This document shows, piece after piece, positions 13,845 to 18,482 of a stretch of DNA of 64,000 nt. This stretch comes from a virus: the IMG/VR virus record IMGVR_UViG_3300017991_004311, positions 34,937 through 98,936 of that record; one strand, given 5' to 3'. The translations under genes and the position numbers were made by a program. The number at the start of each line of letters is the position of its first letter. Within the stretch, counting starts at the first letter, position 1. The notes beneath the pieces were generated by a model. It was given only the letters and a program-made list of their open reading frames with translations, searched no databases and was not told the DNA's origin.

Positions 13845-13993
13845 GCATAGTGGGCACGCTGTTCAGGTTGGCGAGGTTGGGGGCGGACGTGAAAGCGTTC
13901 GGTTCCGGTGATCCGGTGAGGATGGCCCGGAGGGTCAAGAACAAGGCGGTGGGGAGGACGGTGGCGAGCAGGCTGTTCAGGTGGCCGTGGTAG
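13841..13993 (+). CDS. small basic hypothetical protein
   Basis: GGAGG RBS; [28 protein letters not shown]. Confidence 0.6.
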
Positions 13994-14001
13994 TGTGATT
14001 C

Positions 14002-14029
14002 TTGACATTGAGCGGAAATAATGTATAGT
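14002..14029 (+). promoter_or_regulatory. sigma70-type promoter for the Y RNA/Ro60 unit
   Basis: TTGACA-16nt-TATAGT, 6 nt before the RNA 5' end. Confidence 0.75.
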
Positions 14030-14035
14030 GTAATT

Positions 14036-14168
14036 GACGGGGGTAGCTCAGTTGGTAGAGCGCTAACGTACCCTGTGCGATTGTTCGGCCTTTTCAGGTT
14101 GCGCAGTGGAGGGTTACTTCTCCTGCTAAGAGAGAGGTCGCAGGTTCGAGTCCTGCCCCCCGCCACCA
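14036..14168 (+). ncRNA. Y RNA (YrlA-like) in tRNA order with encoded CCA
   Basis: TAGCTCAGTTGGTAGAGC D arm, GCAGG-TTCGAGT-CCTGC T arm, 8-nt acceptor GACGGGGG/CCCCCGCC + ACCA; anticodon arm replaced by a long paired insert; adjacent to Ro60. Confidence 0.8.
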
Positions 14169-14190
14169 TATTTGTATTGGGCAATGATTC

Positions 14191-14277
14191 GAGAGAAGTG
14201 GCGCAGGAAAGGGATACTTCATCATACGGAGATGACGCCGAAAGGCATGTTCCCTGTCCGATTGTTCCACTTCTCTT
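14191..14277 (+). ncRNA. second Y-RNA-like RNA without a tRNA domain
   Basis: Terminal stem AGAGAAGTGG/CCACTTCTCT; shares GCGCAGnnnAGGGnTACTTC and CCCTGTnCGATTGTT with RNA 1. Confidence 0.7.
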
Positions 14278-14299
14278 ACTATTTTAAAGGGGGGGATGA

Positions 14300-15793
14300 A
14301 TGAAGTTCAACCAGCCGGTTGCGAACAGCACGAAGACGGTCAATTTCGAGGGGGCGGTGAGCTATCGCACCGATCCCAGAACGGAACTAGTTTCGCGGGT
14401 GCTCTGCACGCTCGTAGGTGAGCCGAAGTTCTACGCTTCGGGGGAGGAGAGCGATCAGGAATTGGTGACGCTTTTGCGCAGTGTGGGCGCAGCTAACCCT
14501 GAATTCTGCCTGAAACTGGCGGCGTACGCCCGCAACGAGATGCACTTGCGCTCGGTGCCGCAGCTCATTTTGGTGGAGATGGCGCAGCTCGACAGCGTGA
14601 GGGGGACGGGTCTGCTCTTGAAATATGCGCCCGCCATCATCCGCAGAGCCGATGAGATCACCGAGTGCATCGCCTACCAGATCGGCAAATTCGGACGATC
14701 AATCCCGAAGCGGTTGAAGAAGGCAATCGCGCTCACGTTCAATTCCTTTTCCCGCTACCAATTCGCCAAGTACAACCGCGATGGCCAGGTAAGGATGCGG
14801 GACGCCATGTTCCTTTGCCATCCCAATCCGAAGGACGAGGAGCACGGGTTGATATTCAGGCAGTTGGCGGATCAGACGCTGGAGCCTCCGAAGACGTGGG
14901 AGGTTATCATCTCGGAGAATGGCAGCACGAAGGAAGCATGGGGAGAGGTCGTGCGCTTGTGGCTGGAGAGCCCCCGGTTTGGGAACTATATGGCGGCGCT
15001 TCGGAATCTGAGAAATCTTCTACAGGCTAAGGTTGACGCGGGATTGATGCGGCGGGTATGCGATCAGCTCCGGGATAGGGAGAACGTAAGGCGGAGCAAG
15101 CAGCTCCCGTTCCGTTTTTTGTCCGCGTACCGCCAGATTGAGCGGGTTCCGTCTCCGTTTTCCGGCATGGTGCTGGCGGCCGTCAGCGACGCCATGGACG
15201 CGAGCGTGACCAACATCCCTCATCTTCCAGGCATGACCGGGATTTTGGCTGACTTATCGGGTTCGATGGAATCGCCGTTGTCGGAGCGTGGTTCGCTCAC
15301 ATATAGCGATGTCGGGGCCGTATTGGGCGCGGGCATCGACACTATATCAAATGGATTTGTGGTCGGGTTCGGCGAGATCGCGGAATTGGCGGTGCTGAAT
15401 CGGCGGGATAGTGTGCTTACCAATGCACAGAAGATTCGGCGCATGGATGTCGGGGGAAGCACGAACGCATGGAGGGCAATGGAACTTCTGGAGCGGGAGC
15501 ATATTGTGCTCGATCGGGTGATCTTATTGTCGGACATGCAGTGCTGGGACAGTTCCCCGTGGTCCGAGAGTTTCGCTGATTCGTTCCGTTCCTACCGGAA
15601 GACCGTTGCCCCCAAGTGTCTGTTGTATTCGGTTGATCTTGCGGGCTATGGGCAGGGGGTGCAGATCCCTCAGGGCGAATATGGGGTGGCGTTGCTTGCC
15701 GGATGGTCGGACCGGTTGTTCCAGTTCATCTCTGGGTGGGAAGAGAATCGGGAATCGCAGGTGAAGGCAATCGGGAAGTATGATGTGAATTGA
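14300..15793 (+). CDS. rsr: Ro60/Rsr TROVE-vWA RNA-binding protein
   Basis: LAAYARNEMHLRSVP, RADE, YQFAKYNR, TWE, YMAALRNLRNLL, SKQLPFRFLSAY, MIDAS DLSGSM, T and SDMQ. Confidence 0.92.
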   Translation: MKFNQPVANSTKTVNFEGAVSYRTDPRTELVSRVLCTLVGEPKFYASGEESDQELVTLLRSVGAANPEFCLKLAAYARNEMHLRSVPQLILVEMAQLDSVRGTGLLLKYAPAIIRRADEITECIAYQIGKFGRSIPKRLKKAIALTFNSFSRYQFAKYNRDGQVRMRDAMFLCHPNPKDEEHGLIFRQLADQTLEPPKTWEVIISENGSTKEAWGEVVRLWLESPRFGNYMAALRNLRNLLQAKVDAGLMRRVCDQLRDRENVRRSKQLPFRFLSAYRQIERVPSPFSGMVLAAVSDAMDASVTNIPHLPGMTGILADLSGSMESPLSERGSLTYSDVGAVLGAGIDTISNGFVVGFGEIAELAVLNRRDSVLTNAQKIRRMDVGGSTNAWRAMELLEREHIVLDRVILLSDMQCWDSSPWSESFADSFRSYRKTVAPKCLLYSVDLAGYGQGVQIPQGEYGVALLAGWSDRLFQFISGWEENRESQVKAIGKYDVN

Positions 15794-15838
15794 CCTTTTT
15801 CATTCGGCCCGGACCCGGTCAGTCCGGGCTCTCTCCTT

Positions 15839-15872
15839 CGGGGTGCCTCAGAAATGGGGCGCCCCGTTTTTT
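15839..15872 (+). terminator. intrinsic terminator
   Basis: CGGGGTGCCTCA-GAAA-TGGGGCGCCCCG followed by TTTTTT. Confidence 0.85.
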
Positions 15873-15887
15873 GTGGAAATTTCCAAG

Positions 15888-16084
15888 CCTGTGGATAAGG
15901 TGTAACCTAGCGTTACATGTTATCCACAAGTTATCCACAGACAGTCTTTAGATTTCAATCAATCCCTTTCTTGCTGAAATCCTGTAAATCCGCTCCGATC
16001 CTGCCTTGCGTCTATTCCGGGGGAAAATGGGGTTCCTTGAGCCTGTGGATAAAGTGTAACCTAGCGTTACAGGTTATCCACAGG
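15888..16084. repeat. 197-bp DnaA-box element, copy A
   Basis: Five TTATCCACA boxes; both ends are TGTGGATAA-nn-TGTAAC-N5-GTTACA-nn-TTATCCACA; inverted copy at 52058-52254. Confidence 0.9.
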
Positions 16085-16262
16085 GAAACGTGCAATTCCG
16101 TCAATCGCCCGTTGGAAAAGACGGGCGTTTTTCATGGAATGCGGTCCCGCTTTTTTGTTGGAATCGCGCAATCCCGCTCCAGTCTTGCGTTGCCTCCACC
16201 CCAACCTGAAATAAATTTTCTCTAATATAAGAGGGCAATGAAAAATGTGATATGGTTGAGAG

Positions 16263-18482
16263 GTGAGCGCTGTGCCTGAAGAGACTGAGAGGTTCGTGAG
16301 CATCCCGGCGAAGGGGATGGCGGACCATACGAGGAAGCACCCGAGCCACAAGATCGTCACCAAGACGCTGTCGAAGCGCGAGGGGATCTCCGCGCTCTAT
16401 TGCGTGACCTGCGCGAAGATCGCCACGTACCTGTTCGAGAAGGCCAAGGGCTGGACCATGTCGAAGGCGAAGGCGTGGATGAAGCAGCACAAGGCGTTTT
16501 CCCTGGTGGAGGTCGGGGAGGCCGGTCCCGTGTTCCGGCGCATCACGGAGTCGGGCACCGAGGATGTCACCGTTCCCGTGTTGGCCGATGAGATGAAGGA
16601 GCAGGAGGCCCCGGAGAAGATCGCGGCGGAGAACCGCACCATCTTCATGTTCTCGGCGATCGAGGACGGCCTGGCGGAGCTCATGTGCCGGCGTCTGCTG
16701 GCGCTGGACAAGATCAGCGACACGGAGCCGATCACCATCATCATCTCGTCCTTCGGCGGGAGCGTGTACGCGTCCTTCGCGATCACGGACATGATGGAGT
16801 ACATTCGGGCCCCTATCGTGACTATCGGCATCGGCAAGATCATGAGCGCGGGCCTGATGATTTTCATGGCGGGCGACGAGCGCCTGGTGAGTCAGAACGT
16901 GAACATTCTGGCGCACCGGTTCTCCGCAGGCGTGGGCGGCACGCAGGCCGAGATCAAGGCGCGTCAGCGGGAATTCGACATCATCCATGACCAGATGGTC
17001 GCGCATTTCATCAAGCACTGCAACCTTACCACCAAGGAAGAGATCGAGGATACGCTCCTGCGGGAGACGGACACGTACCTGACCCCGGAGGAGCTCATGC
17101 AGTACGGCATCGCGGACAGGTTCTTCGACAAGGCGGACGACGACCGGTCGGAGACGCCCGAGCAACCCGAGAGCATTTCTCCTCCTCTTACCCCCTCGGC
17201 TGACGGCACGGTCGAGGGTAGCTCGGCGAATGACACCAAAGGGCCTCTTCCGGGCACGGGGGAGGCCCCCGAGCAGGAGATCAGGGAGGCAATCGGCGGA
17301 TCGCGCACCCTGCCGCTGGACAAGTCTTCAAAGTGGGACGGGTCCGCAGCGGAGGGGAGGATCAGGCGATGGGCCGGGGGTCCGAAGAAGGAGGAGATGG
17401 AATGGGCCCGGTACCGCAGGGCATTCGTCTGGTACGACCCCAAGCAGAAGGATGCATTTGCGGGCTATAAGCTCCCGTTCGCCGACGTGACCGGCGGCAA
17501 GCTCACGGCGGTGTGGGGAGGGGTGTCGGCGGCCATGGCCGCGGTGCTCGGTTCCCGGGGTGGAGTAAACATCCCGGACAAGCGGGCCGCGTACAATTTC
17601 CTGGCGGGCTATTACCGGAAGTTCGAGAAGAAGCCCCCGAAGTACCACACGAGCCAAAGCATATACGGATTCTACGGGTACGGGCAATACGGGTATGTGA
17701 GTGCCCAGTTCCAGAAAGCGCTCATCCTGCTGAAGCGGATGATCACGGCCGACCCCGACAGCGAGAAGCTGCGGAGGGCGTACCGGCTCCTGGACCCGGC
17801 GGTGAACCGGAGGACCGCGTTCAAGGCGATCGATTCGACGATGACGGCGGTCGCGACCCTCCAGACCGTGAAGGGCACGAAGGGGATCATCGACCTCGTG
17901 CGGACCACGCGCGGGGAGGTCATCACGCGCACCCCGCGCATCATCGAGGGCAAACCGATGGCCGGGACGTGGGCGGCCCCGGTCGACTCCGTCGATTGGG
18001 TGGAGAGCGACAGGAACAAGCCGTTCCGGTTCTCCGGGATTGCGCTGAGGACCGAGGCCGTGTCCGGGAACGGGCGCTATTATCCCCGGAAGGTCGTGGA
18101 GACGGCGGTGGCCGAGGCGCAACAGGAGGCTTCGGCCGTGCTCACGATCTGCGCCGGACACCCGGACGAGGAGGACACCAGCCCCATGTCCATCGTGGGC
18201 AAGGTGCCGGAGATACAACTGAACGACCAGGGCGAAGTCACATTTGTCGGGGAGATTGTCGATACGAGGCTGGGAGAGGATGTGCGGAAGCTGCTCAGAT
18301 TCCTCCCCGCGGGAACGCAACCATTGTCCCTGCGGGCTAGCGGCAGCACGGTGTATGAAACGGTTGGTGGGAGCCGTCGCGAGAGGGTGCTTGAGATGCA
18401 CTTTCGCGGATTTGACCTCGTGCGTCACGGGGGCGTTGTCGGTGCGGCGGTGCAGCAGGTACTCGAAAGCGGAGGTGAATAG
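16263..18482 (+). CDS. multidomain head maturation protease (ClpP domain + prohead core protease domain)
   Basis: ClpP: ISSFGGSV, IMSAG, ILAH, RETDTYL; C-terminal SGNGRYYP, AGHPD, LSLRASG, GFDLV (T4 gp21-like). Confidence 0.85.
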   Translation: MSAVPEETERFVSIPAKGMADHTRKHPSHKIVTKTLSKREGISALYCVTCAKIATYLFEKAKGWTMSKAKAWMKQHKAFSLVEVGEAGPVFRRITESGTEDVTVPVLADEMKEQEAPEKIAAENRTIFMFSAIEDGLAELMCRRLLALDKISDTEPITIIISSFGGSVYASFAITDMMEYIRAPIVTIGIGKIMSAGLMIFMAGDERLVSQNVNILAHRFSAGVGGTQAEIKARQREFDIIHDQMVAHFIKHCNLTTKEEIEDTLLRETDTYLTPEELMQYGIADRFFDKADDDRSETPEQPESISPPLTPSADGTVEGSSANDTKGPLPGTGEAPEQEIREAIGGSRTLPLDKSSKWDGSAAEGRIRRWAGGPKKEEMEWARYRRAFVWYDPKQKDAFAGYKLPFADVTGGKLTAVWGGVSAAMAAVLGSRGGVNIPDKRAAYNFLAGYYRKFEKKPPKYHTSQSIYGFYGYGQYGYVSAQFQKALILLKRMITADPDSEKLRRAYRLLDPAVNRRTAFKAIDSTMTAVATLQTVKGTKGIIDLVRTTRGEVITRTPRIIEGKPMAGTWAAPVDSVDWVESDRNKPFRFSGIALRTEAVSGNGRYYPRKVVETAVAEAQQEASAVLTICAGHPDEEDTSPMSIVGKVPEIQLNDQGEVTFVGEIVDTRLGEDVRKLLRFLPAGTQPLSLRASGSTVYETVGGSRRERVLEMHFRGFDLVRHGGVVGAAVQQVLESGGE

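What the first reader, a model, noticed from the sequence alone, without database searches (positions are those of the whole stretch)
14002..15872. Phage Ro60 unit with a circularly permuted, CCA-ended Y RNA plus a second minimal Y RNA
Seen: promoter > RNA1 > RNA2 > Ro60 > terminator. Both RNAs share motif A (CCCTGT[G/C]CGATTGTT) and motif B (GCGCAGnnnAGGG[T/A]TACTTC), which pair with each other, but in opposite order: RNA2 is B...A closed by its own ends; RNA1 is acceptor-D arm-A-loop-B-hairpin-T arm-acceptor-ACCA. Known: in described YrlA RNAs the Ro-binding stem is formed by the RNA termini and the acceptor stem is a closed internal loop. Inference: RNA1 is the permuted form, a real tRNA body with free 5'/3'-CCA ends and an 8-nt acceptor (A.C mismatch) whose anticodon arm is a Ro-binding helix. 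It could be RNase P-processed, aminoacylated or EF-Tu bound, tethering Ro60 to tRNA-handling machinery or decoying tRNA-targeting defences. No rtcB is in the window. I cannot confirm that this topology is undescribed.
Basis: partly seen in the sequence, partly recalled or inferred. Interest (0 to 1): 0.85.

Follow-up and report, generated by a model that had tools for sequence, protein, structure and literature searches.

The report
Phage Ro60 partner RNA shaped as tRNA
A phage operon encodes the ring protein Ro60 and two partner RNAs, the first of which is a complete tRNA look-alike with free ends and an extra docking arm; I found no description of this layout, although it is common in phages (including crAss001) and in bacteria.

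Summary
A near-consensus promoter (14002-14029) precedes RNA1 (14036-14168), RNA2 (14191-14277), a Ro60/TROVE gene (14300-15793) and a terminator (15839-15866). Motifs A and B each occur twice in the window and nowhere else, in opposite order.

One correction. RNA1's anticodon arm is not the Ro-binding helix. RNA1 keeps a full anticodon-type arm (5 bp, loop CUGCUAA). The A-B "handle" is an extra arm inserted between the D and anticodon arms (tRNA position 26/27). Deleting the handle in silico makes ARAGORN of 36 family members ordinary tRNAs.

The design is a family, not a one-off. More than 50 covarying members lie in phage contigs, including an unannotated gap of crAss001, and more in Bacteroidota and Myxococcota genomes. 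An 8-bp acceptor stem sets them apart from neighbouring tRNAs. Xanthomonas phage Sopo carries the same core modules in the published YrlA order, which supports the permutation reading.

An encoded CCA is not conserved (15%, as in ordinary phage tRNAs). Decoding is unlikely: the anticodon is GCU (Ser) but there is no long variable arm. Ro60 binding, the mature ends and the function are untested.

This scan already noted related handle-bearing tRNA-shaped RNAs on other DNA. I found no paper or Rfam family for them. Verdict: a new variant of the known YrlA kind.

The parts
14002..14029 (+). sigma-70-type promoter TTGACA-16-TATAGT. The predicted start lies about 7 nt downstream, at or next to G14036, the first base of RNA1.
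   Evidence: 11 of 12 matches; start site inferred from spacing only
14036..14168 (+). RNA1: a tRNA-order Y RNA, that is a complete tRNA-shaped RNA with an extra handle arm
   Evidence: Rfam tRNA 42.2 bits; model R1 110 bits; ARAGORN calls it a tRNA only after the handle is deleted in silico
14036..14043 (+). acceptor 5' strand: G-1 plus positions 1-7. Pairs with 14157-14164 (8 bp, A1.C72 mismatch).
   Evidence: family covariation
14046..14061 (+). D arm GCUC-AGUUGGUA-GAGC, with U8, A14, G18G19 and A21 kept
   Evidence: D stem paired in 99.5% of cells
14070..14114 (+). handle, the presumed Ro60-docking arm: basal stem ACCCU/AGGGU, motif A (14071-14085), apical hairpin (14086-14101) and the 5' part of motif B (from 14101)
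   Evidence: (basal stem shows changes on both sides in 7 of 7 pairs)
14115..14122 (+). invariant UACUUC(UC) junction: the last bases of motif B, running into the anticodon-type stem
   Evidence: invariant in all 37 aligned members
14118..14134 (+). anticodon-type arm UUCUC-CUGCUAA-GAGAG: 5 bp, 7-nt loop, U33, 'anticodon' GCU, A37, A38
14135..14156 (+). variable loop AGGUC and T arm GCAGG-UUCGAGU-CCUGC
14157..14168 (+). acceptor 3' strand CCCCCGC, then C73 (paired with G-1), then ACCA
14191..14277 (+). RNA2: a minimal Y RNA. It has an 11-bp terminal stem formed by its own ends, motif B (14201-14220), a 5-bp/7-nt-loop hairpin (14219-14235), a small GAAA hairpin (14237-14246) and motif A (14252-14266).
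   Evidence: z -3.9; the same layout recurs in L004, L002, L008 and L009
14300..15793 (+). Ro60/TROVE-vWA protein, 497 aa, with a G-rich ribosome-binding site at 14289-14295
15839..15872 (+). intrinsic terminator: 12-bp GC-rich hairpin plus T-run

Best explanation
The unit is a self-contained phage Ro60 ribonucleoprotein operon with two partner RNAs that share one docking 'handle'. The handle is the A:B helix with its internal loop and the invariant UACUUC.

RNA2 presents the handle in the classical Y RNA manner, closed by the RNA's own 5' and 3' ends. RNA1 presents the same handle as a hairpin-capped extra arm, inserted between the D and anticodon arms (position 26/27) of an otherwise complete tRNA-shaped body. 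That body has an 8-bp acceptor stem with free ends, a D arm, an anticodon-type arm, a 5-nt variable loop, a T arm and all the usual tertiary-contact bases. RNA1 is therefore the tRNA-order counterpart of the circularly permuted YrlA class.

Proposed mechanism (inferred). Ro60 binds the handle, and the tRNA-shaped module serves as bait or adaptor for a host factor that recognises whole tRNAs, such as a processing, modifying, repair or cleaving enzyme. This would tether the Ro60 ring to that factor early in infection. RNA1 itself is not a decoder.

Shown here: the anatomy, family-wide covariation, linkage to Ro60 genes, and the occurrence of both topologies with the same core modules. Inferred: transcription, the mature ends, Ro60 binding through the handle, and the effector.
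For: Anatomy and motifs.

Family. Model R1 finds 116-165-nt members at 60-123 bits in about 45 phage or metagenome loci and about 75 bacterial loci. On 52 members the acceptor is paired in 94% of cells, the D stem in 99.5%, the T stem in 99.6% and the handle's basal stem in 78%. Changes on both sides occur in 31 of 33 pairs, and 0 of 500 shuffles reach the observed values.

Anticodon-type arm. 30 of 39 evaluable members have the canonical geometry, against 1.1 in shuffles; 24 of the 30 'anticodons' end in U followed by AA.

Handle deletion in silico turns 33 of 36 members into ARAGORN-recognised tRNAs, against 3 of 36 in native form.

The 8th acceptor pair (-1:73) forms in 49 of 58 members against 26.2 expected from base frequencies. 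Ordinary tRNAs of the same loci show 44 of 57 against 43.9 expected. The next pair outward forms in only 15 of 58.

Linkage to Ro60. 14 of 64 distinct Ro60-anchored metagenome loci hold a full-length member within 1.5 kb, 13 of them upstream on the same strand. 16 of 34 loci found by an RNA pattern alone hold Ro60 in the fetched stretch. Of 10 others checked, 3 encode it elsewhere in the record; the 7 without are 12-70% complete by CheckV.

Same core modules in YrlA order: Xanthomonas phage Sopo (Rfam YrlA 52 and 37 bits). Both orders occur within one locus, L045.

crAss001 has members in the unannotated gap after its TROVE gene gp96 (90.7 and 50.6 bits). That gene is an early gene (PMC8375218).

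Not a needed decoder. The phage has no other tRNA. GCU is a Ser anticodon, yet RNA1 has only a 5-nt variable loop. In large phage tRNA arrays the member's anticodon duplicates an ordinary tRNA in 6 of 10 cases.
Against: There is no expression or binding evidence: no RNA-seq run holds this DNA. Rfam YrlA does not match the window even at E<=10. The published GNCGAAN0-1G motif is not present as such. Thermus phage phiLo, whose Ro60 is the nearest solved relative and has experimentally bound Yrl RNAs, gives no match to the RNA1-family model R1, which includes this handle. So handle-Ro60 binding rests on co-occurrence only. In bacterial genomes the same tRNA-order/UACUUC design more often lies beside a conserved 746-aa protein with no detectable similarity to Ro60 (43 of 80 loci, against 20 of 80 with Ro60). 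Part of the design may therefore serve another partner. About a quarter of members have a degenerate anticodon arm, so that arm is not universally required.
Confidence: 0.6

Rival explanations
1. Interrupted tRNA gene. The handle is an intron-like element at position 26/27, cut out and religated (for example by a host RtcB-type ligase) to give a working tRNA. Ro60 would bind the precursor or the excised piece.
For: Precise in-silico removal of the handle restores an ARAGORN-recognisable tRNA in 33 of 36 members. RtcB, a tRNA-splicing ligase elsewhere in life, is encoded beside related RNAs in Bacteroidota (16 of 80 loci). The YrlA structure preprint 10.1101/312249 raises the idea that some YrlA RNAs might be processed towards canonical tRNAs.
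Against: The window's product would be a Ser(GCU) tRNA without the long variable arm that SerRS needs (established knowledge), with an 8-bp acceptor and an A1.C72 mismatch. No bacterial or phage enzyme is known that excises such an element (my knowledge). The same handle sits in RNAs with no tRNA body (RNA2) and in closed-acceptor YrlA-order RNAs. The anticodons are redundant with ordinary tRNAs in 6 of 10 large arrays. Nine of 39 members have decayed anticodon arms. There is no rtcB in this phage.
Confidence: 0.07
2. Decoy. RNA1 is a sacrificial tRNA look-alike that absorbs host tRNA-targeting defence nucleases (anticodon nucleases, acceptor-end cutters). Ro60 stabilises it or handles the cut products.
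For: The anticodon-type loop is kept with the consensus YU-NN-UAA, and many members carry Lys(UUU), Asn(GUU), Thr, Ile or Arg-type triplets. Lys, Asn and Arg tRNAs are among the known targets of anticodon nucleases (established knowledge). The crAss001 TROVE gene is expressed early (PMC8375218). Members sit inside phage tRNA arrays, which are thought to replace cleaved host tRNAs.
Against: There is no direct evidence. The anticodon arm is degenerate in about a quarter of members. A decoy needs no Ro60 handle. The mini RNAs and the YrlA-order RNAs with closed acceptors cannot mimic acceptor ends.
Confidence: 0.15
3. Cis-acting processing or stability element. The tRNA shape only recruits RNase P or RNase Z to cut the operon transcript, releasing RNA2 and the Ro60 mRNA. 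The mature RNA1 has no role of its own.
For: tRNA-like punctuation of transcripts is well known (established knowledge). In relative L008 a perfect promoter lies about 16 nt upstream of the predicted RNA 5' end, so 5' processing is needed there. M. smegmatis YrlA is cut by RNase P (PMC4201824).
Against: This does not explain why the handle is conserved inside the tRNA shape, with covariation and the invariant UACUUC. It also does not explain the family-specific 8th acceptor pair, or members that lie inside tRNA arrays far from the Ro60 gene.
Confidence: 0.08

Closest known systems
YrlA (Y RNA-like A; Rfam RF02553; Chen et al. 2014, PMC4201824; structure preprint 10.1101/312249)
   Same: Encoded beside Ro60 on the same strand. 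D and T arms with tRNA tertiary bases and an acceptor-type stem. A conserved helix thought to dock Ro60. Found in phages as well as bacteria. Xanthomonas phage Sopo carries RNA1's core modules (UACUUC, anticodon-type arm, T and D arms, covarying basal stem) in YrlA order.
   Different: Connectivity is reversed. YrlA has its ends at the Ro stem, a closed acceptor loop, no free CCA end and no anticodon loop (10.1101/312249). RNA1 has free acceptor ends plus ACCA, a hairpin-capped handle, a separate anticodon-type arm and an 8-bp acceptor. The Rfam model does not match RNA1, and there is no literal GNCGAAN0-1G motif.
[quoted passage not shown]
   Same: A Ro60-bound tRNA mimic that ends up with an open acceptor stem and a CCA tail.
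   Different: There the open acceptor arises by cutting a closed loop, which gives a two-piece RNA that still has ends at the Ro stem. RNA1 is a single piece, and its only ends are at the acceptor.
YrlB of Salmonella and M. smegmatis, and Yrl1/Yrl2 of Thermus phage phiLo (PMC4201824; PMC12135203)
   Same: Short second Y RNAs encoded in tandem with the main one upstream of Ro60, with a stem closed by the RNA ends, like RNA2. The phiLo Ro60 is the nearest solved relative of this Ro60.
   Different: The phiLo RNAs were defined by a CGAA motif, and the phiLo locus gives no match to model R1. RNA2 carries the UACUUC handle and an anticodon-arm-like hairpin.
One-piece and circularly permuted two-piece tmRNA (Rfam RF00023 and RF04321), and permuted tRNA genes of algae and archaea (cited in 10.1101/312249)
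   Same: A precedent that one tRNA-like RNA family can exist in two circular permutations.
   Different: Different function (ribosome rescue or decoding) and no Ro60 partner.
Phage T4 stable RNAs species 1 and 2 (rnaC, rnaD) - from memory and from earlier scan notes; not checked here
   Same: Phage-encoded RNAs longer than tRNAs, with tRNA-like ends, encoded among tRNA genes and of unknown function.
   Different: No Ro60 gene in T4. Sequence and structural relation not tested.

Membership tests
YrlA (Rfam RF02553) | Scores at or above the family's gathering score (69 bits) on the covariance model | tested here: not met
   No YrlA match at E<=10 in 13900-14400. Relatives in YrlA order score 33-52 bits.
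YrlA (Rfam RF02553) | Encoded within a few kb of a Ro60/TROVE gene, on the same strand | tested here: met
   RNA1 ends 131 nt upstream of the Ro60 start codon, on the same strand and in one promoter-to-terminator unit.
YrlA (Rfam RF02553) | tRNA-like D and T arms with conserved tertiary-contact bases | tested here: met
   U8, A14, G15:C48, G18G19, A21, G53:C61 and UUCGA are read directly; Rfam tRNA 42.2 bits.
YrlA (Rfam RF02553) | Ro-binding stem formed by the 5' and 3' ends; acceptor-like stem closed by a loop; no anticodon loop | tested here: not met
   RNA1 is the reverse: ends at the acceptor, handle capped by a hairpin, anticodon-type arm present.
YrlA (Rfam RF02553) | GNCGAAN0-1G motif in the Ro-binding strand | tested here: inconclusive
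   No literal match. Motif A holds GUGCGAUUG or GUCCGAUUG, on the strand that is 3' in the RNA closed by its own ends (RNA2).
Y RNA in the functional sense | Bound by Ro60 in vivo | not testable with these tools
   Only co-occurrence statistics are available.
Canonical tRNA | Cloverleaf recognised by tRNA finders; 7-bp acceptor; anticodon arm directly after position 26 | tested here: not met
   ARAGORN finds nothing in the window or in the whole genome. There is a 55-nt insert at position 26/27 (14063-14117) and an 8-bp acceptor. RNA1 is recognised only after in-silico deletion of the handle.
Canonical tRNA | Anticodon and body identity elements agree | tested here: not met
   The anticodon is GCU (Ser), but the variable loop is the 5-nt AGGUC rather than the long arm of bacterial tRNA-Ser (established knowledge).
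Ro60/TROVE protein (the ORF) | TROVE ring plus vWA domain; full-length similarity to solved Ro60 structures | tested here: met
   Pfam TROVE 2.9e-25. phiLo Ro60 9KOP matches residues 11-485 at 1e-40. PHROG 850 'RNA-binding protein' 1e-51.

The most novel reading that the evidence does not exclude
The handle is a portable Ro60 tag that evolution has grafted at position 26/27 onto whole tRNA bodies. The resulting RNAs are matured like tRNAs (RNase P, CCA addition, modification). They are then engaged as full tRNA mimics by tRNA-handling or tRNA-cleaving machinery. This would give phages such as crAss001, and many Bacteroidota and Myxococcota, a 'tagged tRNA' system that couples Ro60 or an alternative 746-aa partner, often together with RtcB, to tRNA damage or defence.
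Probability: 0.2. Interest if true: 0.85.

Novelty: new variant of a known kind. Interest (0 to 1): 0.6.

Why it matters
What bacterial and phage Y RNAs do with their tRNA-like domain has been open since 2014. Published YrlA RNAs lack a free acceptor end and an anticodon loop, which limits which tRNA-binding factors could be their effector. A widespread form with free 8-bp acceptor ends and a kept anticodon-type arm widens that list. Because it occurs in the culturable phage crAss001 and in genetically tractable Flavobacterium, it also makes the question testable at the bench: end-mapping, charging gels and Ro60 pull-downs. In addition, these genes are missed by tRNA finders and are unannotated in GenBank records.

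Tried and rejected
1. Rfam search of the native region: only the tRNA model matches and YrlA does not. Natural chained loci (L118, L101) and phage Sopo served as substitutes.
2. Expression: no RNA holder was listed among public runs for this DNA; 7 DNA runs from sediment and seawater hold it.
3. The MAFFT/RNAalifold consensus alone recovered only the acceptor, D and T stems. The handle and anticodon arm needed a hand-set structure, a covariance model and a script that searches the possible registers.
4. RtcB and a CCA-adding enzyme in the phage genome: none found.
5. The phiLo locus gave no match to model R1, so the experimentally bound Yrl RNAs could not be used to validate the handle.
6. I tested whether handle-bearing tRNAs fill gaps in phage tRNA sets. 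They do not: 6 of 10 are redundant.
7. I tested whether their bodies derive from the neighbouring ordinary tRNAs: inconclusive.
8. The 746-aa partner in Bacteroidota: Pfam, hhalign against Ro60 and the ESM Atlas gave no family.
9. Burroughs and Aravind 2016 and two Wolin-lab reviews could not be opened. A description of this topology in those papers cannot be excluded.
Full report
WHAT IS THERE. The window is part of a 98.9-kb IMG/VR viral record with direct terminal repeats. Between a gene ending at 13993 and a head-protease-like gene (16263-18482) lies one compact unit. It has a near-consensus promoter, TTGACA-16-TATAGT, at 14002-14029, and a GC-rich terminator with a T-run at 15839-15866. 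Inside are two structured RNAs and a 497-aa ORF (14300-15793). The ORF is a Ro60/TROVE protein: Pfam TROVE 2.9e-25, PHROG 850 at 1e-51, and its best solved relative is the Ro60 of Thermus phage phiLo (9KOP/9L5Y, 1e-40 over residues 11-485). Motif A lies at 14071-14085 and 14252-14266, and motif B at 14101-14120 and 14201-14220. Each occurs twice in 64 kb, against 0.02 and 0.00 expected. The order is A then B in RNA1 and B then A in RNA2.

ANATOMY OF RNA1 (14036-14168). The Rfam tRNA model matches end to end (42.2 bits, gathering score 29), with 68 nt where it expects 13. Reading the sequence gives these parts in order:
- acceptor 5' strand, 14036-14043;
- U8, A9;
- D arm GCUC-AGUUGGUA-GAGC, 14046-14061;
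- G26;
- a 7-nt linker;
- a 45-nt arm, 14070-14114, made of a basal stem ACCCU/AGGGU, an internal loop that carries the conserved parts of motifs A and B, and an apical 6-bp hairpin;
- UAC;
- a hairpin UUCUC-CUGCUAA-GAGAG, 14118-14134;
- variable loop AGGUC;
- T arm GCAGG-UUCGAGU-CCUGC;
- acceptor 3' strand, 14157-14164;
- ACCA.

The hairpin at 14118-14134 has the exact geometry of an anticodon arm: 5 bp, a 7-nt loop, U at loop position 2, A at positions 6 and 7, and a 5-nt variable loop after it. The Ro-type helix does not replace the anticodon arm. It is a fifth arm, inserted at tRNA position 26/27. When everything between N26 and the anticodon stem is deleted in a script, ARAGORN calls the window RNA 'tRNA-Ser(gct)' and of 36 family members tRNAs. 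In native form it recognises 3 of 36, and it finds none in the window or in the whole phage genome.

RNA2 (14191-14277). This RNA folds with an 11-bp stem formed by its own ends. Motifs B and A then face each other as in RNA1. Next comes a 5-bp/7-nt-loop hairpin directly after the UAC of the UACUUC motif, and a small GAAA hairpin stands where RNA1 has the tRNA body (z -3.9, 0 of 200 shuffles fold as well). RNA1 and RNA2 thus carry the same 'handle', closed on opposite sides: by a loop in RNA1 and by the RNA termini in RNA2.

IT IS A FAMILY. Ro60 relatives at 55-59% identity (L002, L004, L008, L009) have the same layout: a tRNA-order RNA first, then one to three or more mini RNAs, then Ro60. 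In L008 a perfect TTGACA-16-TATAAT promoter stands in front. A scan of metagenome contigs with the protein and a scan of IMG/VR with an RNA pattern gave 37 distinct examples (alignment A2). A covariance model built from them (R1) finds members of 116-165 nt at 60-123 bits in about 45 loci.

On 52 members, the share of cells forming a standard pair is:
- acceptor stem: 94%;
- D stem: 99.5%;
- T stem: 99.6%;
- basal stem of the handle: 78%.

Changes on both sides occur in 31 of 33 pairs, none of 500 shuffles reaches the observed values, and slid controls drop to 37-51% paired. The alignment was fitted to the model, so these numbers lean towards the structure. However, the unfitted MAFFT alignment already gave 82% against 60% in shuffles. 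UACUUC is invariant in all 37 aligned members.

Thirty of 39 evaluable members keep a canonical anticodon-type arm, against a shuffle mean of 1.1. The loop consensus is YU-NN-UAA, and 24 of 30 'anticodons' end in U: GUU, UGU, GAU, UUU, UCU, GCU, CAU. The remaining members have shortened or decayed arms.

A FAMILY-SPECIFIC MARK: AN 8-BP ACCEPTOR. Position -1 pairs with 73 in 49 of 58 members, where base frequencies predict 26.2. The pair types are G:C 12, U:A 17, U:G 10, A:U 5 and C:G 5. In 57 ordinary tRNAs from the same loci, the apparent pairing (44) equals the expectation from U-1 and A73 alone (43.9). The next pair outward forms in only 15 of 58, so the helix stops at 8 bp. The window RNA fits this pattern (G14036:C14164). 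An encoded CCA is not conserved: 10 of 66 members against 11 of 59 ordinary tRNAs. 'CCA-ended' is therefore true of this gene and of its relative L009, but it is not a family rule. As for ordinary tRNAs, a CCA-adding enzyme would have to supply it, and the phage encodes none.

RELATION TO YrlA. The literature describes YrlA as 5'-Ro stem-V-T arm-closed acceptor loop-D arm-Ro stem-3'. It 'lacks a free CCA end', 'lacks the anticodon loop' and resembles a circularly permuted tRNA (PMC4201824; 10.1101/312249). [quoted passage not shown]

Three observations tie RNA1 to that class as its other permutation:
1. Xanthomonas phage Sopo (LR743529, in an unannotated gap upstream of its Ro60-like gene) has RNAs in YrlA order that carry GGUUACUUC, a covarying basal stem, and in the second copy a full anticodon-type arm. 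Rfam YrlA scores them at 52 and 37 bits.
2. Among Ro60-anchored loci both orders occur, roughly 10 in tRNA order and 8 with a closed acceptor, and both occur within the single locus L045.
3. In chained loci such as L118, the YrlA model and R1 match the same DNA in staggered register.

In the window the reading is unambiguous, because RNA1 begins at the predicted transcription start and no motif B lies upstream.

DISTRIBUTION AND LINKAGE.
- Ro60-anchored loci: 14 of 64 distinct loci hold a full-length member at 60 bits or more within the 1.5-kb flanks, 13 of them upstream on the Ro60 strand.
- Loci found by RNA pattern alone: 16 of 34 contain Ro60 in the fetched stretch. Of 10 others, the 3 that encode it elsewhere are 96%, 71% and 30% complete; the 7 without it are 12-70% complete.
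- Cultured phages: crAss001 has two members (90.7 and 50.6 bits) plus mini RNAs in the unannotated gap after TROVE gene gp96. That gene is transcribed within 10 minutes of infection (PMC8375218).
Ro60 is nearby in 20 of the 80 listed loci. A conserved 746-aa protein with no detectable similarity to Ro60 is nearby in 43 of 80, never together with Ro60. RtcB is nearby in 16 of 80. The tRNA-order/UACUUC design is therefore not exclusive to Ro60.

WHAT IT PROBABLY DOES. Several points argue against decoding:
- The phage has no other tRNA.
- GCU is a Ser anticodon, but the body has a 5-nt variable loop, whereas bacterial SerRS needs the long arm (established knowledge).
- An arm at position 26 would sit where 23S rRNA helix 69 contacts the D stem of ribosome-bound tRNA (established knowledge; inference).
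- The 8-bp acceptor lengthens the acceptor/T stack, as in tRNA-Sec (inference).
- In large phage tRNA arrays the member's anticodon duplicates an ordinary tRNA in 6 of 10 cases.

The best-supported reading is that both RNAs dock Ro60 through the shared handle, and that RNA1 displays a whole-tRNA mimic as an adaptor or bait for a tRNA-recognising factor. This parallels Y RNA tethering Ro60 to PNPase in Deinococcus (PMC4201824) and the phiLo Ro60-Yrl-PNPase complexes (PMC12135203). Docking and the effector are inferred, not shown. The rival readings (interrupted tRNA, nuclease decoy, pure processing signal) are weighed in their own sections.

NOVELTY. None of the following describes a one-piece Y RNA with its ends at the acceptor, an inserted handle and a retained anticodon arm:
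- Rfam 15, which gives only the generic tRNA match;
- Chen et al. 2014 (the word 'permut' does not occur);
- the YrlA structure preprint;
- the phiLo paper;
- the jumbo-phage survey;
- two crAss papers;
- a 2026 preprint on tRNA mimics.

Three relevant papers could not be opened. This scan has already noted closely related handle-bearing tRNA-shaped RNAs on other DNA, including crAss001. Those notes are unchecked AI notes, and some place the handle in the D loop. In this window the D arm is intact and the handle follows it. I class the finding as a new variant of the known YrlA kind. It is real, widespread and testable, but it is an extension of an established theme rather than a new kind of system.

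Noticed in passing
L188:1046-5900 (Flavobacterium johnsoniae) and 42 other genome loci among L126-L205: In Bacteroidota, tRNA-order RNAs with UACUUC (some in arrays of small RNAs sharing GGUCAA..UUACUUC) lie upstream of a conserved 746-aa protein of no known family. RtcB follows in 13 of these 43 loci (in L188 with a SUKH-like gene between). This protein and Ro60 never co-occur in the 80 loci.
   Followed up: partly
window 15880-16090: A cluster of perfect DnaA boxes (TTATCCACA / TGTGGATAA) is arranged as inverted pairs around TGTAAC-N5-GTTACA, directly after the Ro60 terminator. Earlier scan notes list further copies in this genome.
   Followed up: no
L002:1205-1355: A third layout: a hairpin-capped handle (A-loop-B) inside an RNA closed by a 7-bp stem GGCAGGG/CCCUGCC, whose other arms are not tRNA-like.
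   Followed up: no
L016:1-193: An archaeal-type RNase P RNA (RF00373, 109 bits, cut at the locus end) lies next to a tRNA array and a Ro60 gene with YrlA-order RNAs.
   Followed up: no
L005:1-1500: A 113-kb viral contig carries a tmRNA (RF00023, 73.8 bits), a cold-shock-like ORF and a tRNA with a CAU anticodon directly upstream of its Ro60 gene. It has no handle-type RNA.
   Followed up: no
L087 and L105: These phage tRNA arrays include tRNAs with a CUA anticodon, which ARAGORN labels Pyl. They are possible amber suppressors.
   Followed up: no
L008:3003-3075: An extra mini Y RNA with both handle motifs lies downstream of the Ro60 ORF rather than upstream.
   Followed up: no
window 16263-18482: A 739-aa ORF after the Ro60 unit matches head maturation protease / ClpP-like families in two separate regions.
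   Followed up: no
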